Source of the DNA: Candidatus Microgenomates bacterium
GTDB taxonomy: Bacteria; Patescibacteriota; Microgenomatia; UBA8517; JACQJR01
Length of the DNA stretch: 64,000 nucleotides
Reading direction: 5' to 3'
Assembly: GCA_016204995.1 (NCBI GenBank)
Contig: JACQJR010000001.1
Location: forward strand, 241,132-305,131
Shown: in pieces, positions 24 through 35,250 of the stretch
Position numbering within the stretch: position 1 is the first letter of the stretch
Layout of the letters: the number at the start of each line of letters is the position of its first letter
The notes under the pieces: model-generated
Databases searched by the model: none
What the model saw: only the letters and a program-made list of their open reading frames with translations
What the model was told of the DNA's origin: nothing
Program-made: the position numbers and the translations under genes

Positions 24-1733
24 TTAAATTTTTTCTAAAATATCAAACGCTGGTTTACCATCCAGAAAATTTATTGTTTTAATTAAATGAAAGTCAGGAG
101 GATAATTAGACGGACTAGTTATTAAAATAGTTCTGCCACTTGTTGGTACTTCCCCTCCACTTTCCATCTTCCACTTTCCATCTTCTCCGCTAGGTATTTG
201 CCAATCATTTACAAAATAAAACTTATCAAAGCGATCTATCCAAAACCAATTAGACTGACCAAAACGAATTAAGTTGGGATCATTTATATAGTTGGCTGGA
301 TCCCAAGGCCAGTAAAATAAAATAAATTCATGTGGCTCGCCATATTTTTTAGTCATAATAATTTGATCATAACTATTATAATTATCTTTGATAAATCTAA
401 CGGCTTCCTTATATCCATATTGCCAAGACCAAGAATATTCTACCCGATATTTACCAGCATAGGTAGTAATGTAATTCTCAAAAAAAGCGGCTAATAAAAC
501 AATATAAAACACTATAGCAATTAATTGAAAATTCTTCTTGGTGATCCACTTCCACATGATTACCAAACCAATAGCTGCAAGAAGTTGCGGCATCGGCTGC
601 ATCACAATACTACGCAAAGCGTGCGGAGCTTCACGAGTAACGCTAGCGGCAATCGGACTGAAGAAAAGCCAAGATAAAATTAGCAAACTTTCTTTATTTT
701 TATTTTTAACTAACCAGATTAAGCCAATAATTATAAAAGCCAACTCTGTAGGATAAATTAAACCCTTACCTGGTATATTAAATTGATATTGGCTGCCACC
801 GTTAAAAAATAAAAATGAAGGTGAGAAATAGGAGAAATAATTTTGTATAAATTTTTCTCCCACAAAAGTAACCTTATTATGCAATAGCAAAGGCAAGGGT
901 GATGGTAATTTAGAGGTATTTCTTTCTTTATTAATTTGAGAGATCGCCCCCTCATCTAAAATTCCCACCCAGCCATAGCGGGCCAAGCCCACCGGATTTA
1001 GAAGCTGCCAAAACATAGGAAGGAAGAGGAGGGCAATAGGCAATAGGCAATAGGCAATAGTTTTCCTTTGCTTTTCCCACATCTCTTGAAAATAGTTTCT
1101 ATAAATAATTAATAAACTAATCATTAAAAGGGGTACGAAAATTCTGACAGAATTATAAGTCCAAACTGATAAACCAAAAAAGGTTATACCTATGAATAGA
1201 CGCCACCTATTACTCAATCCACTAACAAAAAAATAACTACCAGCTATAGTCAGAAATAGAGCTAAATTTGCTTCCACCGCAACACGGGATAAAAATAAAT
1301 CCCAAGGCTCAATCGCGACAAAAAAGGCAGATAAAATACTAATTTCTTGTTTCTTTAATAAGGTTTGTACAAGTAAATAAGTAAAGATTATTGTACCCAA
1401 ACCAGCCAAAACCGAAACTACTCTGACTGAAAATTCATTTAAACCAAAGATGGCAATAAAAGGAACAAGGCTATAAATATAAACCGGCAATTTATAGTCT
1501 CCATAGGCGCGAAAAATAGTAGGTAAAGTTACTCCCCACTCATCTTGACCTGTTTTTAAAATGGAATAAGCATTAACCCCGTGAGAAATTTCATCCCAAT
1601 TAAGAGCAGGAGGCAACTGTGTGACATTATAAAAACGCAGCAAAGCGGCTAAAATAATAATTAAAACTAAAAATTTATTTTTAATGAAGAAATCAATAAT
1701 CCTCTGCATATTTTTCCTTGCTGGGATCAACAA
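24..1733 (-). CDS. GT-C fold membrane glycosyltransferase, GT39/PMT_2 (ArnT/PMT-like) family
   Basis: 569-aa polytopic ORF; N-terminal loop 'NWDEISHGVNAYSILKTGQDEWGV' (DE-loop typical of COG1807/PMT_2); paralogous to 1693..3369, 6188..7996, 58817..60472; carries in-frame (GGCAATA)x4 at 1032-1060; internal Met at 1709 may be true start. Confidence 0.65.
   Translation of the reverse strand: MLIPARKNMQRIIDFFIKNKFLVLIIILAALLRFYNVTQLPPALNWDEISHGVNAYSILKTGQDEWGVTLPTIFRAYGDYKLPVYIYSLVPFIAIFGLNEFSVRVVSVLAGLGTIIFTYLLVQTLLKKQEISILSAFFVAIEPWDLFLSRVAVEANLALFLTIAGSYFFVSGLSNRWRLFIGITFFGLSVWTYNSVRIFVPLLMISLLIIYRNYFQEMWEKQRKTIAYCLLPIALLFLPMFWQLLNPVGLARYGWVGILDEGAISQINKERNTSKLPSPLPLLLHNKVTFVGEKFIQNYFSYFSPSFLFFNGGSQYQFNIPGKGLIYPTELAFIIIGLIWLVKNKNKESLLILSWLFFSPIAASVTREAPHALRSIVMQPMPQLLAAIGLVIMWKWITKKNFQLIAIVFYIVLLAAFFENYITTYAGKYRVEYSWSWQYGYKEAVRFIKDNYNSYDQIIMTKKYGEPHEFILFYWPWDPANYINDPNLIRFGQSNWFWIDRFDKFYFVNDWQIPSGEDGKWKMESGGEVPTSGRTILITSPSNYPPDFHLIKTINFLDGKPAFDILEKI
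1032..1060. repeat. (GGCAATA)x4 heptanucleotide tandem repeat, in-frame in CDS
   Basis: four perfect 7-bp units within 24..1733. Confidence 0.7.
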
Positions 1734-3369
1734 TTAAAACAGCAGGCTTACCATCAGGATAAATAACAGTATGCAGGGTAGCTATTTTTTCAGGAAATTC
1801 GCCTTTTTGCCCCACTAATAAAACTCCTGATAAATTCTGATCTTCTTGGTAATTAATACTACGAAATATATATTTACCAAGATGATATTCGCCTAATTGG
1901 TCTAAAAATGAACGGCCTTCTTTCTCATAACGCAGCCAGTCTGGGGATTGCTTTTGATAATCTCCCGCGTCCCACTGGTTGTAAAACGCCACATAAATAT
2001 GTGGTTCTGATAAAGACCTACTGATAATTACTTGCTTATAATCTCCCTCTATTTTTTTTACTAAATCCATCGCTTCTTTTCTGCCATACAGCATTGAGGA
2101 CGCTCCATGGATTGGCGCGTGATAAAAATAAGATTCCAAGAAAAATAAAATCCCTACCAGCCCAATAGCCCAATAGCCCAATAGCCAAAAGCGCCAGAAA
2201 GTCAACTTATTGTTTTGTCTCCACCAATTAAATAACGTAACAGCGCCAAACGCTGAAAAAATTTGTATGGCCGGCATCATAGTAGCTGCTCGGTTGGCAG
2301 CAAATCCCGGACCTTTGGTCAAGGCCGCTGGGATAGGAGCAAGCAAAACCCAAATTACGATTAATAGTATAGTTAAATCACGTTTTTTAATTACAGCCCA
2401 AATAGCAACTAAGATGAAGGGCAATTCAAATAAATAAAGTGCCCCCATTCCCGGAATCATTCCATAAGTCCACTCACCAGCCCCTTGTGTGAATAAAAAG
2501 ATGGGGGATAAGTAGGAAAAATAATTTTTAATAAATTCACTAGTAATGTAAACTAATTTATTAGAAAAAATTCGTGCTGTTATATCTGGTAAGCCTTGTT
2601 GTACTGCTTCATATCTGCGATCTGCCACCGCCCCCCATCCACCCGTAGGATTAAAAATAGCAATATCACCAGCCCGACTAGTACTACCTCCAAAAATAGA
2701 TAAAAATGATATGCTTAAAAAGAGTAAAAAGATCCCTACCGCTATTTTTACTGATAATGTCTTCTTAATTTCTTGCCGTTTCCACCACAATAACATTAAT
2801 ACAATTAATGGCGTTAACAATTTAGCTGAATGGTAGGAAAAAAGATTAAGGCCGAAAATTACCGCCGCCACCATCAGAAATTGTGGCTTTTTGATACCTT
2901 TTAAGGAGAGCCAAATACCCAAAGGTAATAAAAGTGTCGTTAAATTTGCCTCAAAAGCACCTCTGGATAAAGACATATGCCAAGGAGAAACGGCTAGCAA
3001 TAGTGCCGACAGAAGTGCCATTTTTTGCTCTTTAAATAATTCTTTTACTAATAAAAAGACTATTAATACCCCTAAAATACCTAAGATCGCATTAGGCAAC
3101 CTGACGGCAAATTCGTTTAAGCCAAAAATAGCAACAGTCGGTATGGCTAAATAGGTATAAAGCGGAGCTTTAAAATCCCCGAAAGAACGAAAAGTTAGAG
3201 GTAAGGTTTGACCCCACTGATCTTTGCCGGTTTTTAAAATAGAGTAAGCGTCGTAACCAAAAGAGGCTTCGTCAGGCGTAAAACCATTTGGATAGCTGTC
3301 AATTCGCCACAACCTCAAAAGGCTTGCTAGAACTATAATGGCCAACAAAATCCAACGTGTCTTACCCAC
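1693..3369 (-). CDS. GT-C fold membrane glycosyltransferase, GT39/PMT_2 family
   Basis: 558-aa ORF; 'FTPDEASFGYDAYSILKTGKDQWG' loop, many TM helices; carries in-frame (CCCAATAG)x3 at 2161-2186. Confidence 0.7.
   Translation of the reverse strand: MGKTRWILLAIIVLASLLRLWRIDSYPNGFTPDEASFGYDAYSILKTGKDQWGQTLPLTFRSFGDFKAPLYTYLAIPTVAIFGLNEFAVRLPNAILGILGVLIVFLLVKELFKEQKMALLSALLLAVSPWHMSLSRGAFEANLTTLLLPLGIWLSLKGIKKPQFLMVAAVIFGLNLFSYHSAKLLTPLIVLMLLWWKRQEIKKTLSVKIAVGIFLLFLSISFLSIFGGSTSRAGDIAIFNPTGGWGAVADRRYEAVQQGLPDITARIFSNKLVYITSEFIKNYFSYLSPIFLFTQGAGEWTYGMIPGMGALYLFELPFILVAIWAVIKKRDLTILLIVIWVLLAPIPAALTKGPGFAANRAATMMPAIQIFSAFGAVTLFNWWRQNNKLTFWRFWLLGYWAIGLVGILFFLESYFYHAPIHGASSMLYGRKEAMDLVKKIEGDYKQVIISRSLSEPHIYVAFYNQWDAGDYQKQSPDWLRYEKEGRSFLDQLGEYHLGKYIFRSINYQEDQNLSGVLLVGQKGEFPEKIATLHTVIYPDGKPAVLIVDPSKEKYAEDY
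2161..2186. repeat. (CCCAATAG)x3 octanucleotide tandem repeat, in-frame in CDS
   Basis: three perfect 8-bp units within 1693..3369 encoding 'WLLGYWAIGL'. Confidence 0.7.
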
Positions 3370-3386
3370 TATTAAATTGTAGCATG

Positions 3387-4934
3387 TTAATTGCGGTATA
3401 AGTAGAATCTAGAGGTGCCGTCAGGCTCAATAATATCAGCTACTTTTGTAAAAGGGCCAATTTGAGTTTTTTGGCCATCCACATCGTTAAAATGGTAAAG
3501 AATTAAGGTATTTGCTGGCAAACTTTCTAAATTAATATCGGCCGGTTCAAAATAGTAAGTTTGAACCATTAATTGAGTTTGATTATTTTTGATTGTATAG
3601 AAACGCCAATACCGATCAATAAATTCTATCCTGTTATCTAGATAAATAGCTGTAGCTCGTTTTTTTTGATTTTCGACTATCACCCGCTCCAAAGCACCCG
3701 GGATATTATATTTAAACCATTCATAGGATCTAATCCTATAATCCTTCATATAGTCATACCAAAAATAAGCAAATTGTATGAGTATGAGTATAAGTAATAG
3801 ATGGCAGCCAGCACGCAATAAGTAAGATTTATGGGAAATAAGAAATTTAATACCATAGGTGGCTAGAATTATGGCAAAAGGCAGCATTACTAAGGCCCGC
3901 GAAATACGGTAATGGTCTCCTACTAAAGCCGCCGCAATCGGAGAAGTAAAAACCCCTACAATTAATAATAAATTTATCCTTGTTCTCTCTTTAAATGCCT
4001 GATAAATACCTAAGGGTAAAAATATAACCACTGGCCAAAGAAAAACTCCACTTTTAGCAGTTGAATGAATTAAACTGACATCGCCCCTGGTAAAAAGAAA
4101 ATAGGGATCAAAATAAGCTATGAAAATAGCTATTTTATGGATAATATTTTCAGGGGACAGCAGTGAAATTACACCACTAAGGGGATTTAAGTTAGTATCA
4201 TAAAGGCGAGTATAGCGAACTTGATCTATTAAAGTATCGGGGTATTGAACAAGCCAGGGGATGATGGGTAATATAGGCAAAATAAATCCTACTATTAAAA
4301 TAAGAACTAGTTTTTTCTGTTTTTTAATTTGGGGTAAAAGAAAAATAAATGTCATTAATAAATATATAGGCATCATCACTTTTGCAGCATGGTAACTATG
4401 AATACCAATTCCTAAAACCAGACCAGCTAAAAATAACAACCATATTTTTTTCTTATCTAAATAATAAGCCATTAAAAATAGCCAGCCCAACACAAAAGGC
4501 ACAATATATAAATTATCTAGCAAAAGCCGACTTTGGATAAAATGAACCGGCGTTAAGGCCAGTAAAATAGCCGCTATCATCCCCCATTTCTCGCTGCTAA
4601 ATAGCTTTTTGGTTAAAAAATAAATCAATATCACATCTATTATTCCTACCATTACACTGGGTAAACGAATAGTTATTTCTGAAATCGGCATAAACAGCAA
4701 AAATAAAGATGCTAGATAAACTATTATTGGAGTGGCCCACATTACTCCCAAATGCCAAAAATAAAAAGGTAAAAGTCTGCCGTTTTCATCAAAGCCAGTT
4801 TTGGCAACAGAATAAGCGTTTAAGGAGAATCCTAACTCATCTTGGTTTAAATGGACTGGAGTTCTGGCAAGCAAACTACCATACAACAAAGATGACGCTA
4901 GAACCAGAAAAACCAGTATGATGATTTTCTTCAT
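3387..4934 (-). CDS. GT-C fold membrane glycosyltransferase (PMT_2/ArnT-like)
   Basis: 515-aa polytopic ORF; 'NQDELGFSLNAYSVAKTGFDENG' loop analogous to neighbours. Confidence 0.6.
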   Translation of the reverse strand: MKKIIILVFLVLASSLLYGSLLARTPVHLNQDELGFSLNAYSVAKTGFDENGRLLPFYFWHLGVMWATPIIVYLASLFLLFMPISEITIRLPSVMVGIIDVILIYFLTKKLFSSEKWGMIAAILLALTPVHFIQSRLLLDNLYIVPFVLGWLFLMAYYLDKKKIWLLFLAGLVLGIGIHSYHAAKVMMPIYLLMTFIFLLPQIKKQKKLVLILIVGFILPILPIIPWLVQYPDTLIDQVRYTRLYDTNLNPLSGVISLLSPENIIHKIAIFIAYFDPYFLFTRGDVSLIHSTAKSGVFLWPVVIFLPLGIYQAFKERTRINLLLIVGVFTSPIAAALVGDHYRISRALVMLPFAIILATYGIKFLISHKSYLLRAGCHLLLILILIQFAYFWYDYMKDYRIRSYEWFKYNIPGALERVIVENQKKRATAIYLDNRIEFIDRYWRFYTIKNNQTQLMVQTYYFEPADINLESLPANTLILYHFNDVDGQKTQIGPFTKVADIIEPDGTSRFYLYRN

Positions 4935-6187: not shown

Positions 6188-7996
6188 TTATTTTTGAGAA
6201 TTAAGGGTCAACAGGTAAAATGCTGGCTCGCCGGAAGGATAAGCAATGGCCCGGATAAGTTTAAGATTTTTCGGCAGTGTCCCCGGCTCTTGAATAATAT
6301 TGACATTAAATTCCTTAGCATTGGCTAGATAAAGGGTTTTCTCATCTAAAAATTCGGATAAGGAGTAAATTCCGCTTTTAAGAGGGGGGGAGGCAAAATA
6401 GAATTTATCCAGATGAGAAACTAATCCATAACCCGGTAAATCGGTTTTGGGGAAAGGAAAATTTTCCTGCCATTTTTGTGGAGGGTACTGGTAGGCACCA
6501 GCAAAGAAAATCCACGGAGGCTCACCTGCAGTTGAAATAATAATTTTGTCAAAATTATTTTCCTCCGCTTTAATTGTTTTAACAGCCTCTTGCCAGCCAA
6601 AATGCCACCATCTCTCACTTTCCCACGGATAGTGCACCCAAAAACTGTGTTGGTAAAGTATAAATGTTAAAACATATACTCCACCTATAGCCAAGGCTAC
6701 AGTTTTTTTCCACCTAGCAGATACATTAAGCCAAATCCCATAAACACCAAAGGCAATTAAAAATATTAAAGTAGGTAGCAGGAAAAATAGGCGGGTGGCA
6801 TGCATTCCACCATCACGAGTTAGAACAGCTGGAATAGGGGCTGCTAATATCCAAAATACAATTAAGGTTTTCATCTTGCCATTAACAGGAGAAACTATAA
6901 AGAAGGCGAGACCTGCCAGCAGGAAAATTAAATCAATCCTATAAAGCTGACCCATTTCGTTTAAGGAATGCCTTAAATTTAAATCTCCCTGAATAAAAAG
7001 AAATTGAGTGGAAAAAACTTGCAAATAGTTACGGACAAACATATTCCACCAGTAAAGCAATTTATTATGAAATACCCTATCAACTAAACTAGGTTGAGCG
7101 CCAAACTTAACATCGGGGTCAGCCACTTTAGCATCACGTAACCTATCCCAGCCAATTTGAGGCACTACAGTCGGATCAGTAAAAATAGACAAATAAGAGA
7201 AGCGGGCAGTACCACCGCCAAAGACCGTGCTATAAGCAATAGGACTACCCACTAAGAATAAAGCAACCACTGACCACAGTAGCCATTTTTTCCCTGCTTT
7301 AAATATTTCCTTCCGGTAAATCAATACCAACGCCGTCAGAAACAAAGGCATAAAGAGCTTAGCCGTACTATAAACCCACGGAGTTAGAGCAAAACATGCA
7401 GCAGACCACGGCAGCCATTTTCCATTTTTCAGTCCACGTAAGAAAAACCAAAGGCCGGCTAGAAAAAATGTCAACATTTGTGTCACTTCAAACCCCGCCC
7501 GGGAGTATTGAATATGCCAAGGAGAAATGGCTAGGAAAAGGGCGGCAAGGATTGGCAAAGACGGGTGGCGGGGGCGGAGGGAGTCCCGACGAGTGCCCGC
7601 AGCGTTCAGCGAGGACATCGGGCGGGACGAGCCCCCGGCAGGACCCGTCGTCCCCTTTAATAATTCCGATATTAATGAATAAAAAATCCAAACTCCTAAA
7701 ATTCCAAAAATGGCGGCTGGAAGTCTTACCCCCAAAGGAGAAATGCCAAAAAGAGCCACCGTTGGTACGGCACTATATAAATAAAGGGGAGTTCTCCATT
7801 CGGCAAGGGACTGAAAATGGAGTGGCATAAAGTTACCAGAATAATCACGACCTGTTTTCAAAATTGAATATGCTTGATAGCCGAGATCCAACTCATCTCC
7901 AAACAAGGAAACCGGTACCTGATCCAGCCGCCATAATCTTAAAAATGAAGCAATTAACAAAATTCCAACGAGCAATAATGGTATCTTCTTTAGCAT
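6188..7996 (-). CDS. GT-C fold membrane glycosyltransferase, GT39/PMT_2 family, carrying in-frame GC-rich element
   Basis: 602-aa ORF; 'FGDELDLGYQAYSILKTGRDYSG' loop; cytoplasmic loop interrupted by ~34-aa 'GTTGPAGGSSRPMSSLNAAGTRRDSLRPRHPSLP' absent from paralogue 1693..3369. Confidence 0.7.
   Translation of the reverse strand: MLKKIPLLLVGILLIASFLRLWRLDQVPVSLFGDELDLGYQAYSILKTGRDYSGNFMPLHFQSLAEWRTPLYLYSAVPTVALFGISPLGVRLPAAIFGILGVWIFYSLISELLKGTTGPAGGSSRPMSSLNAAGTRRDSLRPRHPSLPILAALFLAISPWHIQYSRAGFEVTQMLTFFLAGLWFFLRGLKNGKWLPWSAACFALTPWVYSTAKLFMPLFLTALVLIYRKEIFKAGKKWLLWSVVALFLVGSPIAYSTVFGGGTARFSYLSIFTDPTVVPQIGWDRLRDAKVADPDVKFGAQPSLVDRVFHNKLLYWWNMFVRNYLQVFSTQFLFIQGDLNLRHSLNEMGQLYRIDLIFLLAGLAFFIVSPVNGKMKTLIVFWILAAPIPAVLTRDGGMHATRLFFLLPTLIFLIAFGVYGIWLNVSARWKKTVALAIGGVYVLTFILYQHSFWVHYPWESERWWHFGWQEAVKTIKAEENNFDKIIISTAGEPPWIFFAGAYQYPPQKWQENFPFPKTDLPGYGLVSHLDKFYFASPPLKSGIYSLSEFLDEKTLYLANAKEFNVNIIQEPGTLPKNLKLIRAIAYPSGEPAFYLLTLNSQK
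7558..7652. repeat. GC-rich palindromic element, copy A (in-frame within GT39 gene)
   Basis: GACGGGT at 7560-7566 and ACCCGTC at 7643-7649 (reverse complements); internal hairpins (GGGACGA..TCGTCCC); GC-rich in AT-rich CDS; shares GACGGGTG...GCGG.GGGAG.CCC.ACG...GGCAGGACCCGTCG with copy B. Confidence 0.6.
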
Positions 7997-16668: not shown

Positions 16669-17493
16669 TCAATTTTTCTGCTGTTGCATTTCCCATAACT
16701 TGGCATATCTGGCAAAAACACTATAACCTTGGTAAAAAGAGAAAATAATACCGGCGGTTCCATCTAAAAATCCTAGTTTTAAAATTAACCGGCCCCATAC
16801 TTCACTTACTACTGGTCTAACAAATCTCCACCATGTCATTTTTGGATGACCGCTATCGTACAATAATTTTGCTTCTATTTCTGACCATTTATTAGTTTTT
16901 TTAATCATATCTTCTAAATTATCCTCTTTTAAATGAATGAAAGCATTTTTTAAATAACCAATTTCTCCCTCAATTTTTGGCTGCTCATGTAATTCTCCTT
17001 CCCAACGGATTAATTTATCTTTTTTAATCAAACGAATGACATAATCAGGGTACCAGCCGCCGTGGCGTAATTCTTTCCCAAAAACAAAATTACGTCTCGG
17101 AATAGCAAAAGCCGCCGGTGACGGGTGACTCGCGGCGGGGAGCCCCACGGAAGGGGCCCCAGAGTTGTTACCTGGTGGAATGGCCGTGGGGCTGCCGCGA
17201 GGCAGGACCCGTCGGCTGATTTCCTCACGTAATTCCAGAGTTACTCTCTCATCTGGATCAATATAAAATAGCCACTCACTTTTTGCCACCTCTTTTCCCT
17301 GATTTCTCCAAGTATCATAACTACCAGCTTTTTGTTTAAAAATTCTGGTGCCATATTTTTTGGCAATCTCTAAAGTTTTATCAGTTGACCCAGCGTCCAA
17401 GATAATAATTTCTCCTAAATCTTTTGCTGATTCCAAACAATCAGTTAATTTTTCAGCCGCATTTTTGGTTAAAATAATTACTGAAATATTCAT
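16669..17493 (-). CDS. GT2 family glycosyltransferase carrying in-frame GC-rich element
   Basis: 274 aa; 'ISVIILTKNAAEKLTDCLESA...IIILDAGSTDKT'; ~32-aa insert 'LPRGSPTAIPPGNNSGAPSVGLPAASHPSPAA' absent from paralogue 18398..19294. Confidence 0.75.
   Translation of the reverse strand: MNISVIILTKNAAEKLTDCLESAKDLGEIIILDAGSTDKTLEIAKKYGTRIFKQKAGSYDTWRNQGKEVAKSEWLFYIDPDERVTLELREEISRRVLPRGSPTAIPPGNNSGAPSVGLPAASHPSPAAFAIPRRNFVFGKELRHGGWYPDYVIRLIKKDKLIRWEGELHEQPKIEGEIGYLKNAFIHLKEDNLEDMIKKTNKWSEIEAKLLYDSGHPKMTWWRFVRPVVSEVWGRLILKLGFLDGTAGIIFSFYQGYSVFARYAKLWEMQQQKN
17118..17215. repeat. GC-rich palindromic element, copy B (in-frame within GT2 gene)
   Basis: GACGGGT 17120-17126, ACCCGTC 17207-17213; internal inverted repeat CCCCACGG..CCGTGGGG; same orientation and reading frame ('HPS' tripeptide) as copies A and C'. 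Confidence 0.6.
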
Positions 17494-23543: not shown

Positions 23544-24638
23544 TTACTTAAAAATCTTTATTAAAGTTTCTGCTAAATTAGTTTTTCTACCATCTCTTGG
23601 AAAAATTTCCCTAATCGTATTTGGGAAGAACCCTTCAACTGCGTTCCAAATTTTAACACCGTTATTATCAATTTCACTCAAAGCTCCTGGTAAATATGGA
23701 TATTTATGTGTGATCCTAGCCTGAAAGAGTTCAGGAGATTCAGGAGAAATAATATACAATTTTAATTTTTTACTATCTATTGCATTAACAAGACATTCAT
23801 TTATATGCTCATCACGAAATCCATAACCAACCAACAATAACCTTACCTCTTCTTGATTTAAAGATTTCTTAAATTCTTGGAAATAAAAATTTAGTAAGGG
23901 CTCTTTTTCAATATCGGACTTTTTATTCTTGCCTATTATCATTCTGCTAGTACCATCACTTGATACCCAACCTAAAGAACCATGTAACTTCATGTACAAA
24001 ATATTGTGCTGCTTCTTAACACTCTCTAATTCTGTGACAAGTTCAACTTCTGAAAATCTATTAAGCTCATCGTGGTTAGGTAATATATGTGGATCTCTGT
24101 TTGAGTATGATATTTTGTACCCGCCACATTGCTTTAATCTCTCTTGAGAAAACCATTTAGTTTTTGAAATAAATGGTTGCCAGCCAAATTTTTGTTCAAA
24201 AAATAAATCTTGGTTGAGAGTGAAACAAACTCCTACCCGCTCTTCATTGAAGAAAAACAAACTCAAAAAATCCTTAAGTTCTTCCTGGTTAACCCCCCAG
24301 GAATCAATGATTTGATTTTCTCCTTGTCCTATTATTAGTTGCATCGAAATGTATGTTTCGATAATTATCTTTTCAAATTTAGTTTTATCATCAGATGAAT
24401 ATCCGTCACCTAATATTATTTCGCTAAATATATTCTCAAAATCAAACTTTTTCTCCGAATTTTTGAATAATTCTTTAGCTTTGGTTAACTGATTAAGATC
24501 AGGATTATTAAAAATTTTTACCCACATCTCCCTAGCAAGGAATCCACCAAAATTAGCTGTAAAACCGGCACCGAAAAGTAGCATATTTTTTCTATAGTTT
24601 AAATCCATGCAAGTTTTATTTACGCTGCAACCTTCCAT
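23544..24638 (-). CDS. SIR2-like (SIR2_2 family) protein, putative NAD+-consuming defence effector
   Basis: 'MLLFGAGFTANFGG' (GAGxS-like N-terminus), 'FTLNQDLFFE' (TTNYD-like, Asn), 'KLHGSLGW' (HGS His), 'LLLVGYGFRDEHI' – the four hallmark blocks of PF13289; likely start at internal Met 24608. Confidence 0.6.
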   Translation of the reverse strand: MEGCSVNKTCMDLNYRKNMLLFGAGFTANFGGFLAREMWVKIFNNPDLNQLTKAKELFKNSEKKFDFENIFSEIILGDGYSSDDKTKFEKIIIETYISMQLIIGQGENQIIDSWGVNQEELKDFLSLFFFNEERVGVCFTLNQDLFFEQKFGWQPFISKTKWFSQERLKQCGGYKISYSNRDPHILPNHDELNRFSEVELVTELESVKKQHNILYMKLHGSLGWVSSDGTSRMIIGKNKKSDIEKEPLLNFYFQEFKKSLNQEEVRLLLVGYGFRDEHINECLVNAIDSKKLKLYIISPESPELFQARITHKYPYLPGALSEIDNNGVKIWNAVEGFFPNTIREIFPRDGRKTNLAETLIKIFK

Positions 24639-24967
24639 GCTACAGAATACTATTAAATAGTATCAGAAATCTATCTCTGAGATATGATAGTTCTAAAGAG
24701 ATTTATGCTGCTTGAAATAACACTTTTGGCTTGGATTACCTTAGTTTTGAAATATTCAACCAAGAAGTTGGAATTAAATTGAAAGAAACTACCAACTCTT
24801 TTTGCTTTCCCTCCAAACATATCTATAACCAGGAGGTGCTGGTGGCTTTGATGGTTTAGGCACACTAGGTGACCGAGGAGGCCTGGGTGGTCTAGGAGCT
24901 GTCGGAGCTTTTGGCGGTCGAGGACCCTATATGGGATTGGAATAATCTTTAGCCAGCTTCCATACCA

Positions 24968-25213
24968 TTAGTAGCTACCTCCTCCATCAAGTTCTTGACT
25001 AGGTGAAACTGAACCAGAAACATTTGAAGCAGTCCCAGCTGAAACAGAGATAATTCCGCCTACAAATCCTTGCTGTTTTTCAGTAGGGAGGTCTGTATGT
25101 TTCTCACAAACATTGTTTAAACACGACCAGATACCTAAAGTTTGAATAATTAGACTACCACACAAGGTACAAACTAAAACCCCAGATTTTGTTCTGTTAG
25201 TCCAATTAAGCAT
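24968..25213 (-). CDS. hypothetical small membrane protein
   Basis: 81 aa, one TM helix 'GVLVCTLCGSLIIQTLGIWSCL', Gly/Ser-rich tail. Confidence 0.25.
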   Translation of the reverse strand: MLNWTNRTKSGVLVCTLCGSLIIQTLGIWSCLNNVCEKHTDLPTEKQQGFVGGIISVSAGTASNVSGSVSPSQELDGGGSY

Positions 25214-25386
25214 AAAATTATTAAAAAGATGCCAAGTAAAAACTTAGGCTAGTATTACATTAGCATTATAATACAATCGGCACTAAAAAACTAGATAGGT
25301 AAATACTAATGACTTCAATTATTTTGATTCTTACCTTCAGCTACGTTCAGAAGAAATCTGACGTAGGCAGTAGAGTTTATAAACTA

Positions 25387-25411
25387 ACTGTTCTCCTCTA
25401 AGAGAAGAACA
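25387..25411 (-). terminator. putative hairpin terminator downstream of R-M operon
   Basis: CTGTTCTCCTC-taa-GAGAAGAACAG (11-bp stem, 1 mismatch) ~20 nt after REase stop; flanking U-tract weak. Confidence 0.3.
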
Positions 25412-25429
25412 GTAAAACAAAAAATATTT

Positions 25430-25948
25430 TTATGGAATCGGGAGTCCTAATTTCTGTAGGGGTAAATAATTAAAATAATATTGACAACCTACATCGATTA
25501 TATAATTAAGGGTATCTTTATATTGTGGTTTTCTGAACCAATCACTAAGAATATAAATATACTCAACCTCTATATTAAGTGAGGCCATTAACTTTTTATA
25601 TTGTTTCTTTTTGAAATCACAAGTTTGTAACTTCTCATCCACCGAGCCACCCACATTTTGAATCTTTAGTTCAATAACAAACAATGTATTATTAACGATC
25701 ACATATATTGCTTCATCGGGTAAAAGTTTTTTAGAAATTATCTTTGTATAATTAACCCCTTTAGCAGCTAAAAAATTATAAAGAGAATGTTTTTTATAAC
25801 TTCTTGCCACCTCCTCATCTTGATAGTAGATAACCTTATCTTTCACTGAATATCCTTCAGTCTTGCTAAGTAAGGAAATGATATCTTTTTCTTTCTCAAA
25901 ATTAAGACCAGTTAAGGTATTTCCTCCTCCTTTTCCACCTTTAATCAT
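25430..25948 (-). CDS. Type II restriction endonuclease (PD-(D/E)xK fold)
   Basis: 172 aa; 'LPDEAIYVIVNNTLFVIELK' = PD...ExK catalytic motif; start ATG overlaps stop of upstream methyltransferase (ATGA). Confidence 0.5.
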   Translation of the reverse strand: MIKGGKGGGNTLTGLNFEKEKDIISLLSKTEGYSVKDKVIYYQDEEVARSYKKHSLYNFLAAKGVNYTKIISKKLLPDEAIYVIVNNTLFVIELKIQNVGGSVDEKLQTCDFKKKQYKKLMASLNIEVEYIYILSDWFRKPQYKDTLNYIIDVGCQYYFNYLPLQKLGLPIP

Positions 25949-26811: not shown

Positions 26812-26944
26812 ATTTTATGAAAAAGTGTTATGAACTAGCATAAGTATTTTACCACAAATCTTGTAATATTTTTATGCAAATTTTTAAAAAAATTTTAGCC
26901 ACGAATTAAGTATAAATTAGCATCCCTTTGATATACATTTTTAT

Positions 26945-27016
26945 AGTTGACAGTTATTCCAGTCAACCTCAAAATAGCAGACGCGCGATTAAACTGATAA
27001 AAGGAGGTGAGAATAT
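26945..27016 (+). promoter_or_regulatory. putative sigma70-like promoter (TTGACA-N17-CAAAAT) within inverted repeat AGTTGAC/GTCAAC, followed by strong SD AAGGAGGTG
   Basis: TTGACA at 26947-26952, inverted repeat arm GTCAAC at 26962-26967, SD at 27002-27010. Confidence 0.35.
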
Positions 27017-27124
27017 ATGCCATACAGAAGTTCTAAAACGGGTAAATATGTTAAAAAATCATACGCACAAAAGCATCCAACAGTTACTGAAAGAGAGAGA
27101 AATAAAAAGAATAATAGGCATTGA
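27017..27124 (+). CDS. small basic peptide (35 aa) with canonical SD
   Basis: ATG 8 nt after AAGGAGGTG; 'MPYRSSKTGKYVKKSYAQKHPTVTERERNKKNNRH'; below the 60-aa cut-off of the ORF track. Confidence 0.3.
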   Translation: MPYRSSKTGKYVKKSYAQKHPTVTERERNKKNNRH

Positions 27125-27183
27125 ATCGTCTAGTGGACAAGCAGGCAATGGGTGGACTAAAGTGGAATTAGACTGCATCTTAT

Positions 27184-27859: not shown

Positions 27860-29317
27860 TTATTGAATCTTCGCCACTATGGATTTGATTTCAGTGGAAA
27901 GAATATCTTTCGGAATACCGCCTAAATCTTCATAGAAAACTTTGAGGTTGAAATCGTGATATAACAATTGCAGGGCGTCGGAATTATTTAAAATATAAGC
28001 AGCTTGGCGGGAACTACCTCCCCAATCGCCAGAAATTTTCGGGTAACTGGGATCATTTACGAAATAAACTATGGCACCCTTGGGTAAAGTTGGATAAGTA
28101 GTTAAAACGTTATTAATTAATTTCTCGGCAATCCTACCACGAACTGCCGCCGGATAAGTTCGATCACCCAATTTAATTGACGTCACTGACAACACCACCA
28201 AAGAAGTAATTAAAATCACTTTCAATAAATTCATTTTATTAGAGAAAATTAGATAACCTATCACTCCCCAAAAAGCCGGCAGGGCTGGTGCTAAATAGTA
28301 AGTTGATTTATGAAGTGGAAGTAAAATTACCGGCGAGATAGCTATGGGAAACCAAAATAGTAGAAAGATAAATTTTTTGTCTAGTAAAGCTGATTTATTT
28401 TTTCGCCACAAGTTAATTATAAAAATAATTATTAATCCGATTGATAAGAAAAATGCCGGGAAAATAATTTTAAAATAATCTCCCCAAAATTTCATTAAGT
28501 TTGGATTAAGCGATAACTTGGGGCCAATAAAATCAATCAGCATTTCCGGCATACCCGCCGCCCACACAGTGTACCAGGCAAAGGAATTAATTATTTTTGG
28601 CAGAGAAAATACTGCCTGGTATTGAGCATCTTTTTGTAAAAGACCAATTTTGACAAAATCCAGATAGATAAAAATTAACAGTATCAGGAAAAAAGGCCAG
28701 ACCATTTTGATATTTTTTCCTTTAATCCAAACCATTCCCAGCATCAAGAAAGGCGTGGTAATTGCCAACTCATGCGAGGCTAGTGATAGTAGAAAAACAA
28801 CTAGCGATAAAATCCACCATTTTATTTTTCCCTCTTGGAGATATTGCCACCAGCAAATTAGAGTTAAGAGCATGAACATGGTGACTCCCAAAGCTTGAAT
28901 TCCACCGGCCAAATAATAAAGCAGTGCTACATTCGCAGCAGTTATCCTAAAGAAAAAAGCTGTGAATAGCGATAAAAACTTTTTGGCAAAAATTTTCTGC
29001 ATTAATGTATAAACCAGTACTGTATTAATTAAATGAATGGATATTGACAGTAGGCGAAATGGTAAATGATTAAGACCGAATAATTGATAATAAATATTAA
29101 ATAATCCTTCCCGGAAAACAGGCCGGTAAAAGGCATAGCCTCGCTCGGAAAAACTGGGAAAGCCAAATAAATTGATAAAACTTTCTAGCTTGCCATCAGT
29201 TAAACTGGCTTTAAAATGAAAAAAATCATCCTGGGAAAAATAAACTCCCAAAACGGGAGAATAAATCCACAAAACAAAAAGGCAGACTAAAATAAGAGGC
29301 CACCACCTACTTAACAT
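27860..29317 (-). CDS. polytopic membrane protein, putative GT-C fold glycosyltransferase
   Basis: 485 aa; 'FSQDDFFHF...GYAFYRPV' acidic first loop; many TM helices. Confidence 0.45.
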   Translation of the reverse strand: MLSRWWPLILVCLFVLWIYSPVLGVYFSQDDFFHFKASLTDGKLESFINLFGFPSFSERGYAFYRPVFREGLFNIYYQLFGLNHLPFRLLSISIHLINTVLVYTLMQKIFAKKFLSLFTAFFFRITAANVALLYYLAGGIQALGVTMFMLLTLICWWQYLQEGKIKWWILSLVVFLLSLASHELAITTPFLMLGMVWIKGKNIKMVWPFFLILLIFIYLDFVKIGLLQKDAQYQAVFSLPKIINSFAWYTVWAAGMPEMLIDFIGPKLSLNPNLMKFWGDYFKIIFPAFFLSIGLIIIFIINLWRKNKSALLDKKFIFLLFWFPIAISPVILLPLHKSTYYLAPALPAFWGVIGYLIFSNKMNLLKVILITSLVVLSVTSIKLGDRTYPAAVRGRIAEKLINNVLTTYPTLPKGAIVYFVNDPSYPKISGDWGGSSRQAAYILNNSDALQLLYHDFNLKVFYEDLGGIPKDILSTEIKSIVAKIQ

Positions 29318-31058
29318 GAGAAAGTTTAAAACTGTGTTTTCTTTTCCACAAGATACGAAGCAAGATAAACCAAGAAATTAAGGAAATCATATTACCCACA
29401 GTGCGAATAGGAGTATTAGTCAGTCTCACTTCCAGTTTATGATCTCCCTGGGGAACCAATAAACTAATTCTAGCTAAATCATCCTTAGGCAGAACTTTAA
29501 TTTCTGTCTTTTTGCCATCTATCCAGGCTTTCCAATTAGGAAAGTTGAAAATATTAACAACCACTGTCGCATTATCAGAATTAACCTTTATGTTAGTTTT
29601 TAACCAGTTCGTACCTTCTTTTGTTTGACTAAATTCAGCCTTACCACTGTCTATCTCCAATGGTTCTTTACGAGCTGACTGTGGGGCAATTCTAGCACCC
29701 TTTGGCAAGTAATCATAAATACCGGCTGTTTGCTGCAGTCTCCAAGCCTCTCCGGAAAATTTTTCCTGATCTGTGACCGGCCCGGTTCTTTCTACTCTAA
29801 AAAAGTTGAAATTAAAAATAATTAAAAATATTAGTAACGCAGAAATAATTGCTTTGCCTATCACACGTAAAGGAGCTAGTAATACGACAAGGGCTCCGGC
29901 TAAAAAGCTTAAGGAAAAAATAGTCAAAGTTAAAAAGCGCCAGGGGAATTGGACTATAGACAAAAATGGAAAGGTTAACCAAATCGGCGTAGATCGACTA
30001 TGAGCCATAAAGGCTGCTCCAATACCCACCACCAGCAGAAAACCAACCAAAGCTACCAAATTAAGGTTAAATTTCTTTTTCTTTTTAAAAATGATGCTCG
30101 CTATAGTGAGCACTACAATTACCAAAGCCAGTATCCAATGAACATGGCCGACGGGAAAAGCCATTCCGTCTCCATCCATCCAGACCGAAGCCCCATAGCC
30201 CCAAAAACGAGAGAAGAATAATTGCTTAAAAGTGGCAAAATGGGCAATATACTCATAATATCCTTGAGTCAAAGTCTCCACATGTACTAAATTTTTCTCA
30301 AAAAAGACCGGCAAGGTAAAAAAGGCTGCCAGTCCTATTCCCCAAATTCCCCCTATAGCCAGCATGGGTACTTTATTAAATTTACCTGTGCGCCATAACC
30401 ACCATAGAGACCAGACCGCCAGGACCGGCGTAAATATCAGAACCATGATGTTATGTGACAACAATAATGCTGCCCAAGCAAGAGCTAAAATCATCACCCA
30501 TTTCAAAATTGAAGACGGGTGATCCCGCTTAGCGGGAGCAGGACTCGTCGAAACAATTAATTTATAAGTGCTCCATAAAAGTAAAGGAAACCAAACTAAA
30601 GCCCAACTCTCATTCATAGCTCCCCTAACAAAAACATCTAGGGCATGATATGGCGCCCAAATATAAAAAGTCGCCGAGACTACCCCACCAAAACGTCCCC
30701 AAAATTCTTTGGCCAGTAAATACATCGTAAAACCAGAAAGCATTATGCTTAGTAAAAAGATAATTTTGGCAACCTCGGTAAAATGAAAACCGACTAGTCT
30801 AAATACTTGTCCAACAAGATATGGCAATGGAGGATAATAGTTAAATAGGGGGAAACCGTAGCCATATCCCATATCCGGCACCCAACGGCAAGGGATTTGT
30901 AAGTCTTTAAAACATTTCTCAAGTTGTAGTTGTCTCATCATCTGCAAATCATCATGCATGGGAAAATATCCCGGCAATAATAAATCGCGTGAGGCCAAAA
31001 GACTAATAAAAATTAGCAGTATAGGTACCCAAAATTTCGTCAACCACTTAACTATCAT
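29307..31058 (-). CDS. PTPS-related (PF10131-like) polytopic membrane protein, putative GT-C
   Basis: 583 aa; 'PMHDDLQMMRQLQLEKC' HDxxxH/R N-terminal loop; paralogue of 60472..62103; carries 12-aa in-frame mini GC element. Confidence 0.5.
   Translation of the reverse strand: MIVKWLTKFWVPILLIFISLLASRDLLLPGYFPMHDDLQMMRQLQLEKCFKDLQIPCRWVPDMGYGYGFPLFNYYPPLPYLVGQVFRLVGFHFTEVAKIIFLLSIMLSGFTMYLLAKEFWGRFGGVVSATFYIWAPYHALDVFVRGAMNESWALVWFPLLLWSTYKLIVSTSPAPAKRDHPSSILKWVMILALAWAALLLSHNIMVLIFTPVLAVWSLWWLWRTGKFNKVPMLAIGGIWGIGLAAFFTLPVFFEKNLVHVETLTQGYYEYIAHFATFKQLFFSRFWGYGASVWMDGDGMAFPVGHVHWILALVIVVLTIASIIFKKKKKFNLNLVALVGFLLVVGIGAAFMAHSRSTPIWLTFPFLSIVQFPWRFLTLTIFSLSFLAGALVVLLAPLRVIGKAIISALLIFLIIFNFNFFRVERTGPVTDQEKFSGEAWRLQQTAGIYDYLPKGARIAPQSARKEPLEIDSGKAEFSQTKEGTNWLKTNIKVNSDNATVVVNIFNFPNWKAWIDGKKTEIKVLPKDDLARISLLVPQGDHKLEVRLTNTPIRTVGNMISLISWFILLRILWKRKHSFKLSHVK
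30514..30549. repeat. GC-rich palindromic element, short form C' (in-frame within PTPS-related gene)
   Basis: GACGGGTG-atCCCGCTtAGCGGGag-caGGACtCGTCG; termini as in A/B around a perfect 6+6 palindrome; encodes 'STSPAPAKRDHPSS' absent from paralogue 60472..62103. Confidence 0.5.
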
Positions 31059-35238: not shown

Positions 35239-35250
35239 TTTCTAATTGTA

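What the first reader, a model, noticed from the sequence alone, without database searches (positions are those of the whole stretch)
7558..7652. GC-rich palindromic element inserted in-frame into a GT39 glycosyltransferase (copy A of a 3-member family)
**Observation.**
- About 95 bp of strongly GC-rich DNA sits inside an AT-rich GT39 gene.
- Its termini GACGGGT and ACCCGTC are exact reverse complements, and it carries internal hairpins (GGGACGA/TCGTCCC).
- Against the paralogue 1693..3369 it adds about 34 residues (GTTGPAGGSSRPMSSLNAAGTRRDSLRPRHPSLP) in a cytoplasmic loop while preserving the reading frame.
- Related copies lie at 17118-17215 and 30514-30549, in two unrelated genes, in the same orientation and the same frame (each contributes an 'HPS' tripeptide).

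**Interpretation.**
- This is the behaviour described for Rickettsia palindromic elements (RPE): selfish palindromic repeats that colonise ORFs in-frame.
- It has not, to my knowledge, been described in this form for AT-rich ultrasmall genomes.
Basis: partly seen in the sequence, partly recalled or inferred. Interest (0 to 1): 0.78.

Follow-up and report, generated by a model that had tools for sequence, protein, structure and literature searches.

The report
GC-rich hairpin repeat inside genes
Three genes of this ultrasmall (Microgenomates/CPR) bacterium carry in-frame copies of a GC-rich hairpin repeat that belongs to a large, apparently undescribed family, found between and inside genes (including essential ones) in many CPR genomes and a few other phyla, and that behaves like the palindromic elements of Rickettsia.

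Summary
The window (Candidatus Microgenomates, 37% GC) has three copies, all on the + strand: 7560-7649, 17120-17213 and 30514-30549.

- **Anatomy.** Each copy is 5'-GACGGGT-G(A/G)-[variable hairpin]-GCAGG-AC(C/T)CGTC-3'.
- **Position.** Each lies antisense and in frame in a different membrane or glycosyltransferase gene. Most orthologues lack the insert.
- **Protein effect.** AlphaFold models the copy A peptide as a disordered loop between helices.
- **Family size.** It is not a three-member family. Scans returned more than 150 relatives of 30-103 nt in Saccharibacteria, Microgenomates, Omnitrophota, a Rickettsiella and others.
- **Family behaviour.**
  - The core GGGT-GA-C…G-GCAGG-ACCC is invariant and the helices covary strongly.
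  - There is no target duplication, no Rfam match and no adjacent transposase.
  - About 30-40% of copies sit in frame in genes such as topA, aaRS genes, gatB and tsaD. The rest lie just after stop codons.
  - Orientation follows GC skew (37:11 locus clusters), not gene direction.

**Best reading:** a REP/RPE-like non-autonomous hairpin element that is translated through. Mobilisation as single-stranded DNA at the replication fork is inferred, not shown.

**Classification:** it is not a sequence member of the RPE, GTAG/CGTC-REP or classical MITE families, so I rate it a new variant of a known kind.

The parts
7560..7649 (+). Copy A, long form (90 nt). P1 5' arm 7560-7566 GACGGGT; internal-loop 5' side GG 7567-7568; variable multi-helix interior 7569-7637; internal-loop 3' side GCAGG 7638-7642; P1 3' arm 7643-7649 ACCCGTC.
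   Evidence: The interior belongs to the subtype with the inner module GCCCGCAG-[hairpin]-CGAGGAC, shared with L177 and L122 585-683.
7559..7651 (-). Peptide encoded by copy A within the host frame: T116-S146, TTGPAGGSSRPMSSLNAAGTRRDSLRPRHPS.
   Evidence: The insert is absent from most orthologues. AlphaFold gives pLDDT below 50 for residues 117-143, between helices 87-114 and 146-156.
6188..7996 (-). Host gene A: a 602-aa PMT_2 / GT39-like membrane glycosyltransferase, identical to HY404_01185 of Candidatus Microgenomates bacterium.
17120..17213 (+). Copy B, long form (94 nt). GACGGGT 17120-17126; GA 17127-17128; interior hairpin; GCAGG 17202-17206; ACCCGTC 17207-17213.
   Evidence: fold -64.7 kcal/mol, z -4.95. 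The interior resembles the metagenome copies L166, L222 and L196.
16669..17493 (-). Host gene B: a 274-aa family-2 glycosyltransferase. The insert reads RRVLPRGSPTAIPPGNNSGAPSVGLPAASHPS.
   Evidence: Most orthologues have a short loop here, and close relatives carry other variants of the element at the same site.
30514..30549 (+). Copy C, short form (36 nt). GACGGGT-GA-TCCCGC-TTA-GCGGGA-GCAGG-ACTCGTC, with one G·T wobble in P1 on the + strand.
   Evidence: Relatives carry long forms at the same loop (P0248, P0249). Short forms arise from long forms by internal deletion (L072).
29307..31058 (-). Host gene C: a 583-aa polytopic membrane protein (HY404_01285; homologues hit PF10131 and YfhO). The insert reads about PAPAKRDHPS.

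Best explanation
**What it is.** The three sequences are copies of a non-autonomous, GC-rich, hairpin-forming repeat of the REP/RPE kind. The family is widespread in CPR bacteria (Saccharibacteria, Microgenomates) and occurs sporadically in other phyla.

**Anatomy.** The unit is a rod-like hairpin built from:
- a 9-bp basal helix, whose inner 4 bp GGGT/ACCC never vary and whose outer 5 bp covary;
- an invariant asymmetric internal loop, GA (rarely GG) opposite GCAGG;
- a second helix of free sequence that starts with a C-G pair;
- a variable interior of 8-80 nt, often G5A-C5…G5A.

Short forms such as copy C are internal deletions of long forms.

**Where copies persist (shown).** Copies survive where they do least harm:
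- directly after stop codons;
- inside genes, only when the reading frame stays open.

**Translation (inferred from open frames and frame bias).** In-gene copies are then translated as Gly/Pro/Ser/Ala/Arg-rich loops. In the preferred frame these start with T-G-(P/D) and end with HPS, SPV or DPS.

**Mobilisation (inferred).** A trans-acting enzyme probably recognises the conserved helix and internal loop on single-stranded DNA at the replication fork, as for IS200/IS605 and REP/RAYT systems. The grounds are:
- there is no target-site duplication;
- the ends are a hairpin rather than fixed inverted repeats;
- orientation follows GC skew rather than gene direction.

The enzyme has not been identified.
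For: **Repeat family and structure**
- The three window copies share termini far beyond chance.
- More than 150 relatives share one architecture in contigs of 33-75% GC.
- 22 of the held loci carry two or three copies.
- Copies at loci with unrelated flanks are 95-97% identical: L166/L222 and L136/L203.
- The covariation score is 0.445, against 0.122 in shuffles (0 of 500 reach it) and at most 0.081 when partners are slid.
- Copies found through the core alone still pair at all five outer positions, with different sequences.

**Insertions rather than ancestral loops**
- Most orthologues of all three host proteins lack the insert.
- Close relatives carry short, long or inverted variants at the same loops.

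**Translated through**
- 35 of 120 copies lie in continuous ORFs with at least 60 codons on each side. By a looser criterion 50 of 120 do.
- The 11 candidate frame-breaking cases were not shown to be split genes. The three with long flanking ORFs (L136, L202, L229) are junctions between adjacent genes. The other two inspected (L160, L139) give only short, low-complexity open stretches.
- 16 of 21 in-gene copies start at codon position 3.
- In-gene lengths avoid 2 mod 3: 3 of 35 in genes, against 25 of 74 between genes.
- The copy A peptide is modelled as a disordered loop.

**Short forms are deletions**
- L072 holds an 81-nt and a 44-nt copy. They differ by the hairpin that lies between direct GGGGGA repeats.

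**Single-strand / replication link**
- There is no target-site duplication.
- No gene recurs next to the copies.
- The element's top strand lies on the C-rich strand in 45 of 56 loci, and in 37 of 48 clusters of related loci (p = 2e-4).
- Orientation is not tied to gene strand (25 sense: 25 antisense).
- IS200/IS605 elements show a replication-linked orientation bias of this kind (PMC5027513).
- REPs likewise sit within 20 bp after ORF ends, can supply stop codons and occur in frame inside genes (PMC3733652).
Against: - No transposase was found. The 64-kb window holds no Y1/HUH or other transposase domain and the loci share no neighbouring gene. Whole genomes could not be scanned.
- The 22-nt core is identical across phyla. 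In two orthologous in-gene pairs the element is better conserved than the flanking coding DNA (97% against 75-79%, and 90% against 61-70%), with compensatory changes. That is more than decaying selfish DNA predicts. RPEs are reported to deteriorate (own knowledge: Amiri et al. 2002).
- The copies were found with exact-match patterns, so conservation of the core within the sample is partly built in.
- The two outermost base pairs take all four Watson-Crick types. That could equally reflect insertion at the centre of palindromic tetranucleotides.
- Both 0 and 1 mod 3 length classes occur inside genes, so the exact inserted unit is not defined.
Confidence: 0.62

Rival explanations
1. A host-beneficial DNA site. 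The hairpin or cruciform with its invariant internal loop would be a genome-wide binding or processing site, for example for a replication, repair, topology or chromosome-organisation protein. Gene-dense CPR genomes would then have to place it partly inside genes.
For: - The core is identical across phyla.
- The structure is maintained by compensatory changes even inside essential genes.
- Orientation is polarised with GC skew, as for KOPS- or Chi-like polar sites.
- The same loops are occupied in three genomes whose host proteins are only 65-72% identical.
Against: - Most orthologues do without the element.
- Density is low and uneven: 3 copies in 64 kb here.
- The interior turns over completely between orthologous sites.
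- Short deletion derivatives persist.
- No partner protein is known.
Confidence: 0.15
2. A functional structured RNA module. It would act as a terminator or mRNA-stabilising hairpin, or as a protein-binding motif using the kink-turn-like internal loop, and would have been spread secondarily.
For: - Intergenic copies lie 7-19 nt after stop codons, and some are followed by T-runs (L023, L038, L072).
- Covariation is strong.
- G·T mismatches outnumber A·C 29:13 on the top strand.
- The internal loop matches the Kt-7 pattern except at one position (own knowledge, by inspection).
Against: - Orientation relative to transcription is random: 25:25 inside genes, and 19:14 between co-directional genes. 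Half the copies would therefore present the complementary loop in RNA.
- All three window copies are antisense to their genes.
- No Rfam family matches, even at E-values up to 10.
- The 2b·2n position would be G·G rather than the A·G that defines a kink-turn.
Confidence: 0.13
3. An intervening sequence that is removed from the RNA, or bypassed by the ribosome. Comparable cases are introns, archaeal bulge-helix-bulge introns and the GC-rich 'byp' elements of yeast mitochondria. On this reading the apparent in-frame reading would be irrelevant.
For: - The hairpin is very stable, has conserved ends and sits inside essential genes.
- GC-rich inserts in AT-rich genomes are bypassed in Magnusiomyces mitochondria (own knowledge).
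Against: - Every in-gene copy found keeps the frame open (35-50 copies).
- None of the five frame-breaking candidates inspected was a split gene: three are junctions between adjacent genes and two give only short, low-complexity open stretches.
- There is frame bias and depletion of one length class inside genes.
- Both orientations occur inside genes, which an RNA-level signal would not tolerate.
Confidence: 0.04
4. Not an insertion at all: an ancestral low-complexity loop, or an assembly artefact.
For: The same loops vary in length among relatives.
Against: - Most orthologues lack the segment.
- The same nucleotide motif occurs in three unrelated genes and in more than 150 independent assemblies.
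- Exact protein matches exist in NCBI for all three host genes.
Confidence: 0.01

Closest known systems
Rickettsia palindromic elements (RPE-1 to RPE-8)
   Same: - Hairpin-forming repeats.
- Found both between genes and in frame inside many unrelated, often essential, genes.
- The host protein keeps its frame and gains a 10-50-residue surface segment.
- Present or absent among orthologues.
   Different: - This element is GC-rich in an AT-rich genome.
- It has a 22-nt core identical across phyla and a freely variable interior.
- It shows strong helix covariation instead of decay.
- It shows an orientation bias with GC skew.
- It lacks the features given for RPE-4/-6 (the CGTC-REPs) in PMC3733652.
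- No sequence comparison with RPE consensus sequences was possible here.
REP/BIME elements and REPINs with RAYT transposases, including the GTAG- and CGTC-tagged REP superfamilies (PMC3733652; PMC3333891)
   Same: - GC-rich hairpins.
- Located within 20 bp after the upstream ORF.
- Can supply the stop codon (L136: T + GA of the element).
- Occasional inverted dimers (L215).
- In-frame copies inside genes, including tRNA synthetase genes.
- No target duplication.
   Different: - There is no unpaired GTAG or CGTC tag and no CCA tail. In the GAC/GTC variant the CGTC is paired, and it varies between copies.
- Units are 70-100 nt multi-helix rods rather than 20-40-nt single hairpins.
- The conserved part is an internal loop.
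- No RAYT gene has been found so far.
IS200/IS605-family elements and their ORF-less derivatives (PATEs): single-strand 'peel and paste' transposition (PMC5027513)
   Same: - No terminal inverted repeats in the classical sense and no target duplication.
- Recognition of imperfect hairpins is plausible.
- Orientation is biased with respect to the replication strand.
   Different: - Those elements have two different subterminal hairpins and insert 3' of a fixed tetra- or pentanucleotide. Here a single hairpin makes up the whole element.
- Only a weak CAT(C/G) preference is seen 5' of the element.
- No TnpA gene has been identified.
GC clusters and 'byp' elements of yeast mitochondria, and double-hairpin elements of chytrid mitochondria (own knowledge)
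   Same: - Short GC-rich palindromic mobile elements in AT-rich compact genomes.
- They also land inside coding regions.
   Different: - These are organellar elements with unrelated sequences.
- Byps are skipped by the ribosome, whereas the present copies keep an open frame.
Classical bacterial MITEs (Correia/NEMIS, ERIC, Coxiella QMITE; PMC5896051, PMC10969869)
   Same: - Non-autonomous and multi-copy.
- Fold into hairpins.
- Sometimes lie in frame in ORFs.
   Different: - This element has no target-site duplication.
- Its termini covary instead of being fixed inverted repeats.
- The QMITE paper contains none of the core motifs.

Membership tests
Rickettsia palindromic elements (RPE) | A palindromic repeat inserted in frame in unrelated ORFs and absent from orthologues. 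| tested here: met
Rickettsia palindromic elements (RPE) | Sequence similarity to the RPE-1…8 consensus sequences, and occurrence in Rickettsiales. | not tested
   No RPE consensus sequence was available in the tools. The host here is a Microgenomates bacterium.
CGTC-tagged REPs (including RPE-4 and RPE-6), as defined in PMC3733652 | An unpaired terminal CGTC tag, an 8-9-bp stem with A/T pairs at positions 1-2, a 4-5-nt loop and a CCA tail. | tested here: not met
   CGTC is part of the paired basal helix, and it is replaced by GCC, GCT, GTT, GCA… in secondary copies. Stems are G/C-rich, the fold has several helices, and there is no CCA tail.
GTAG REPs / REPINs with RAYT | A conserved GTAG tetranucleotide at the foot of the hairpin, and a RAYT gene flanked by REPs. 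| tested here: not met
   No GTAG is present at either end. No Y1/HUH domain was found in the window, and no neighbouring gene recurs. Whole genomes were not searchable, so the RAYT part remains inconclusive.
REP-like genomic behaviour | Location just downstream of ORFs, in either orientation, sometimes supplying the stop codon. | tested here: met
   The median distance to the upstream ORF end is 7-19 nt in both orientations. The L136 stop codon TGA is made of a flanking T plus GA of the element.
Classical MITE | Fixed terminal inverted repeats flanked by a direct target-site duplication. | tested here: not met
   Apparent 2-nt 'duplications' (32 observed against 6 expected) are all self-complementary dinucleotides, that is, stem extension. 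For n of 3 or more there is no excess. The outer five stem positions covary.
IS200/IS605-type single-strand elements | Orientation bias relative to the replication strand. | tested here: met
   45 of 56 loci, and 37 of 48 clusters of related loci, have the element's top strand on the C-rich strand. The replication strand is inferred from GC and AT skew only.
IS200/IS605-type single-strand elements | Insertion 3' of a fixed tetra- or pentanucleotide, and a TnpA (Y1) transposase in the genome. | tested here: inconclusive
   The 5' flank shows only a partial preference: C 38%, A 51%, T 38%, C 39% at positions -4 to -1. No TnpA was found in the sequence held.
Kink-turn RNA motif | A 3-nt bulge followed by tandem sheared G·A and A·G pairs. 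| tested here: not met
   By inspection the bulged strand reads G-GCA-GG-A-CCC and the other strand GGG-U-GA-C. Position 2b is G, not A, so the second pair would be G·G. Nothing else about the motif was tested.
Any curated RNA family (Rfam 15) | A covariance-model match. | tested here: not met
   No match at gathering score in the window or in 30 loci. None was credible at E up to 10 on copy A or on a type-1 copy; the best was CyVA-1 at 17.7 bits against a 41.4-bit threshold.
Intron / intervening sequence / translational bypass element | Removed or skipped, so the frame and stop codons inside it are irrelevant. | tested here: not met
   All in-gene copies are open and frame-preserving. None of the five candidates inspected was a split gene. 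Frame and length-class biases are present.

The most novel reading that the evidence does not exclude
The element may not be mere selfish DNA. It could be a previously unrecognised class of conserved, strand-polarised structured nucleic-acid module. Its features on this reading are:
- an invariant GGGU-GA / GCAGG-ACCC helix-loop-helix with a kink-turn-like geometry;
- maintenance by selection across CPR and other phyla, even inside essential genes;
- a role as the recognition site of a still unknown, widely conserved single-strand DNA (or RNA) processing enzyme linked to replication.
Probability: 0.2. Interest if true: 0.85.

Novelty: new variant of a known kind. Interest (0 to 1): 0.68.

Why it matters
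**Proteins.** CPR/Patescibacteria have tiny, gene-dense genomes that are thought to carry few repeats. A widespread hairpin repeat that sits in frame in topoisomerase I, tRNA synthetases, GatB, TsaD, BipA and cell-envelope glycosyltransferases would be a recurrent source of protein loop insertions in these organisms. It would also confound annotation and protein alignment.

**Mechanism.** Three features make a concrete question testable: which enzyme recognises this helix-loop on single-stranded DNA at the fork, and whether the host has put the element to use.
- The core is identical across phyla.
- The helices covary strongly.
- Orientation follows GC skew.

**Practical uses.**
- The core sequence is a marker for finding further copies.
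- It offers natural permissive insertion sites in CPR proteins.
- It is a candidate for a new Rfam or repeat-database family.

Tried and rejected
- **Known RNAs.** Rfam at gathering score and at E up to 10 on the window, on copy A, on a type-1 copy and on 30 loci gave nothing. ARAGORN found no tRNA or tmRNA.
- **Literature by sequence.** The core sequence appears only in unrelated primer lists.
- **Literature by topic.** Searches on CPR/Patescibacteria palindromic elements, MITEs, REPs and RAYT found no report in CPR. The QMITE and RepRanger papers contain neither the motif nor CPR taxa.
- **Phage vector.** Viral contigs gave only 2 short-form hits and no long form.
- **Actinomycetota hits.** About 45 hits of 47 nt in Mycobacterium and other Actinomycetota vary at every third position. 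They are one conserved protein-coding gene, that is, chance matches.
- **Autonomous partner.** All-against-all clustering of 1,841 ORFs from 105 loci found no family in more than 9 loci. The recurrent families checked are housekeeping genes such as L20, L21, IF3, EF-P and L6/L18. No transposase domain occurs in any of the 54 window ORFs.
- **Target-site duplication.** None was found.
- **Split genes rescued by deleting the element.** There were 11 candidates and five were inspected. L136 (ThrRS|MiaA), L202 (Tdk|Tmk) and L229 are junctions between adjacent genes. L160 and L139 give only short, low-complexity open stretches.
- **Extra copies in the window.** The matches at 22446 and 39626 are chance.
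- **Other GC-rich patches.** Those at 21.6, 24.9, 35.6, 51.6-51.9, 53.9, 54.7 and 57.5-57.9 kb do not fold better than shuffles and are not hairpins.
- **DNA mini-hairpin loop C-GAA-G.** It is the commonest apical loop and is enriched (33 copies against 17.5 expected), but it occurs in a minority of copies. It is a weak pointer only.
- **Whole-genome census.** This was not possible.
Full report
**1. What is in the window**

The window is 37% G+C. Exact protein matches place it in a Candidatus Microgenomates bacterium, on a contig of 609,565 bp.

*The three copies.* The octamer GACGGGTG occurs three times, all on the + strand, against 0.35 expected. Each occurrence is followed 36-94 nt later by GCAGGAC(C/T)CGTC. 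The copies are:
- A, 7560-7649, 90 nt;
- B, 17120-17213, 94 nt;
- C, 30514-30549, 36 nt.

*Composition and folding.*
- A and B are the most GC-rich 60-nt stretches of the window, at 0.75-0.77.
- All three fold as hairpins on a 7-bp basal helix GACGGGT/ACCCGTC. In C one pair is a G·T wobble.
- Next comes an asymmetric internal loop, G(A/G) opposite GCAGG, and then a hairpin whose sequence and length differ completely between copies.
- Other GC-rich patches in the window are not hairpins.
- Two partial matches, at 22446 and 39626, are chance.

**2. They are in-frame insertions**

*Position.*
- Each copy lies antisense inside a long minus-strand ORF:
  - a PMT_2/GT39-like transferase (6188-7996);
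  - a GT2 transferase (16669-17493);
  - a polytopic membrane protein (29307-31058).
- All three sit within a very large cell-envelope glycosylation cluster.

*Comparison with orthologues.* Most orthologues of each host protein have a short loop at the site. The window proteins carry about 30, 25 and 10 extra residues.

*Structure.* AlphaFold2 models residues 117-143 of host A with pLDDT below 50, between helices 87-114 and 146-156.

*Frames.* At the gene-sense 3' end all three read HPS. At the 5' end A and C share a frame (T-G/S-P), while B, which is 1 mod 3 in length, reads RRVLP.

**3. The same loops in relatives**

I fetched syntenic DNA from three related genomes, whose host A proteins are 65-73% identical.

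- *GT39 loop.*
  - L121 has a 30-nt short form in the same orientation. A near-identical 30-nt copy sits in another PMT_2 gene of that contig.
  - L122 has a 94-nt long form in the opposite orientation, with a compensated basal helix GGCGGGT/ACCCGCC.
  - L124 has an AT-richer sequence with no recognisable element.
- *GT2 loop.* It is occupied in the window, in L122 (99 nt, with an interior like window copy A) and in L121 (a degenerate short form).
- *Host C loop.* Relatives carry A-type long forms there (P0248, P0249).

These loops are either hot spots or old insertions whose interior turns over while the ends persist.

**4. The family is large and widespread**

*False positives.* I set aside chance hits in high-GC genomes. 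Among them is a conserved Actinomycetota protein-coding gene with third-position variation.

*True members.* The remaining hits share one architecture in contigs of 33-75% GC. It reads NN-NNN-GGGT-GA-C[helix 2]-(G-rich loop, often GGAGGGGGA)-CCCCC[helix 3…]GGGGG-A(n)-[helix 2']G-GCAGG-ACCC-NNN-NN.

*Named sources*:
- about ten Saccharibacteria;
- a Gottesmanbacteria MAG;
- two Omnitrophota;
- an Aminicenantes MAG;
- a 'Deltaproteobacteria' MAG;
- a rumen Bacillota MAG;
- the closed chromosome of a Rickettsiella endosymbiont.

*Other points.*
- Viral contigs hardly contain the element.
- No Rfam family matches.
- Seven full-text searches and three further papers checked turned up no description in CPR bacteria.

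**5. Structure is maintained**

*Formal counts.* I used an ends-only alignment of 96 distinct copies.
- 87.7% of cells are paired, against 68.6% in shuffles.
- The covariation score is 0.445, against 0.122 in shuffles (0 of 500 reach it) and at most 0.081 with slid partners.
- All eight pairs of helix 2 show double changes.
- The two outermost pairs were not part of any search pattern. They are paired in 75-87% of copies and take all four Watson-Crick types.

*Independent check.* Copies found through the core alone pair perfectly at the five outer positions with different sequences: GGC/GCC, AGC/GCT, AAC/GTT, TGC/GCA.

*Long and short forms.* In L072 the two forms differ exactly by the helix-3 hairpin lying between direct GGGGGA repeats. 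Short forms such as window copy C are therefore deletion derivatives.

**6. Genomic behaviour**

I analysed 120 copies in contigs of at most 56% GC.

*Copies inside genes.*
- 35 lie in continuous ORFs with at least 60 codons on each side. With a looser criterion 50 do, 25 sense and 25 antisense.
- Hosts include a P-type ATPase, TsaD, topoisomerase I, BipA, a GT4 transferase, a class-V aminotransferase, GatB, a class-I tRNA synthetase, CysRS (twice), MnmA, a class-II tRNA synthetase and an M1 peptidase.
- I found no gene broken out of frame.
  - There were 11 cases where deleting the element joins two open frames. I inspected five.
  - L136 (ThrRS|MiaA), L202 (Tdk|Tmk) and L229 are junctions between adjacent genes.
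  - L160 and L139 give only short, low-complexity open stretches.
- In-gene copies prefer one frame. Sixteen of 21 start at codon position 3, giving x-T-G-P/D… and …HPS, SPV or DPS.
- In-gene copies avoid lengths of 2 mod 3: 3 of 35, against 25 of 74 between genes.
- Together this argues that they are translated and that selection filters them.

*Copies between genes.* Intergenic copies sit 7-19 nt after the stop codon of the transcriptionally upstream gene, in either orientation. REPs do the same (PMC3733652).

**7. Clues to mechanism**

- There is no target-site duplication. The stem simply extends by two covarying pairs.
- No gene recurs beside the copies, and the window encodes no transposase.
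- Copies at non-homologous loci can be 95-97% identical, differing by compensatory pairs. This shows copying between sites.
- Orientation is locally concordant.
- Orientation tracks base skew.
  - The element's top strand lies on the C-rich, A-rich strand in 45 of 56 loci.
  - The same holds in 37 of 48 clusters of related loci (p = 2e-4).
  - Orientation is unrelated to gene direction.
  - The window fits: GC skew is negative throughout, and all three copies have their top strand on the + strand.
- Replication-strand polarity combined with hairpin ends and no duplication is the signature of single-strand transposition in the IS200/IS605 and REP/RAYT world (PMC5027513). I take that as the most likely route. 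This step is inferred and the enzyme is unknown.

**8. What does not fit plain selfish DNA**

- The 22-nt core is identical in distant phyla.
- In two orthologous in-gene pairs the element is better conserved than the flanking coding DNA:
  - topA, 97% against 75-79%;
  - the aminotransferase, 90% against 61-70%.
- In both pairs the differences are compensatory.
- Ascertainment by exact core match inflates conservation of the core, but not of the interior.
- I therefore keep two rivals open, a selected DNA site and a structured RNA module.
- The RNA reading is weakened by the random orientation relative to transcription. The internal loop also misses the defining A·G pair of a kink-turn.

**9. 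Classification**

- *Functionally* the element behaves like RPEs and REPs.
- *By membership* it fails several tests:
  - the features given for the CGTC-REPs (including RPE-4/-6) and for GTAG-REPs;
  - the classical MITE test, because there is no target duplication and the termini are not fixed;
  - any Rfam family.
- Comparison with RPE consensus sequences was not possible.
- I file it as a new variant of a known kind: a CPR-centred family of GC-rich hairpin repeats with an invariant internal-loop core.

Noticed in passing
window 24-22564, 27860-44361 and 58817-62821: A very large cell-envelope glycosylation cluster. It holds at least 14 PMT_2/GT-C-type paralogues, many GT2 and GT4 transferases, a YfhO-like protein, a flippase, a GT2-PMT_2 fusion (39783-41978) and a membrane protein with a spermidine-synthase domain (37483-39786). 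Nearly all genes are on the minus strand.
   Followed up: partly
window 23544-27855: A low-GC islet inside the glycosylation cluster. It encodes a SIR2_2-domain protein (23544-24638), an N6/N4 DNA methylase (25945-26811) and a PD-(D/E)XK nuclease (27184-27855, one of the few plus-strand genes). It could be a restriction-modification or defence insert.
   Followed up: no
L136 5998-6078: The copy lies between ThrRS and MiaA. The ThrRS stop codon TGA is made of a flanking T plus the element's first GA. The MiaA frame stays open back into the element, where an ATG lies 8 nt after GGGGGA, a Shine-Dalgarno-like spacing. Several type-1 copies carry this GGGGGA-CCCCCAAA-ATG arrangement.
   Followed up: partly
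L072 1755-1798 and 2193-2273: Short (44 nt) and long (81 nt) forms with the same second helix lie 400 nt apart. The short form is the long form minus the hairpin between direct GGGGGA repeats.
   Followed up: yes
L215 341-419 (+) and 460-540 (-): Two copies in inverted orientation lie 40 nt apart, reminiscent of REP dimers (BIMEs/REPINs).
   Followed up: no
L032 2184-2331 / 2368-2401, and L027 4551-4600 / 4643-4737: One copy sits between a glmS ribozyme and the start of the downstream gene. Another sits about 40 nt upstream of a SAM-I riboswitch. Copies therefore also land in 5' leaders next to known regulatory RNAs.
   Followed up: no
L217 2126-7066: A 1,647-aa ORF carries both a weak, below-threshold match to an intein splicing domain (32.2 bits against a 35.8-bit cut-off) and an in-frame 51-nt copy of the element.
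   Followed up: no
L005, L008, L009 and about 45 other Actinomycetota loci (47-nt matches): The search pattern also hits a conserved protein-coding gene of Mycobacterium and other Actinomycetota. Variation at every third base marks it as coding. These are chance matches, not members of the family.
   Followed up: yes
Flanks of copies in many loci, e.g. CATG|GAC…GTC|CAGA and CATC|GAC…GTC|GAGA: Beyond the 9-bp helix, a subset of copies shares CAT(G/C) on the 5' side and (C/G)AGA on the 3' side, implying a conserved A·G mismatch at the foot of the hairpin. This is either a subfamily feature or a target preference.
   Followed up: partly
Apical loops of the family (169 copies): C-GAA-G is the commonest apical loop and is enriched on the top strand: 33 copies against 17.5 expected, and only 8 with the complement. 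d(GCGAAGC) is known as an unusually stable DNA mini-hairpin (own knowledge).
   Followed up: partly
L124 3400-3440 (GT39 loop of P0002): At the site where relatives carry the element, this genome has an AT-richer 36-nt sequence with a duplicated CGCGAAACTACGCG motif. It may be a decayed copy or an unrelated small palindrome.
   Followed up: no
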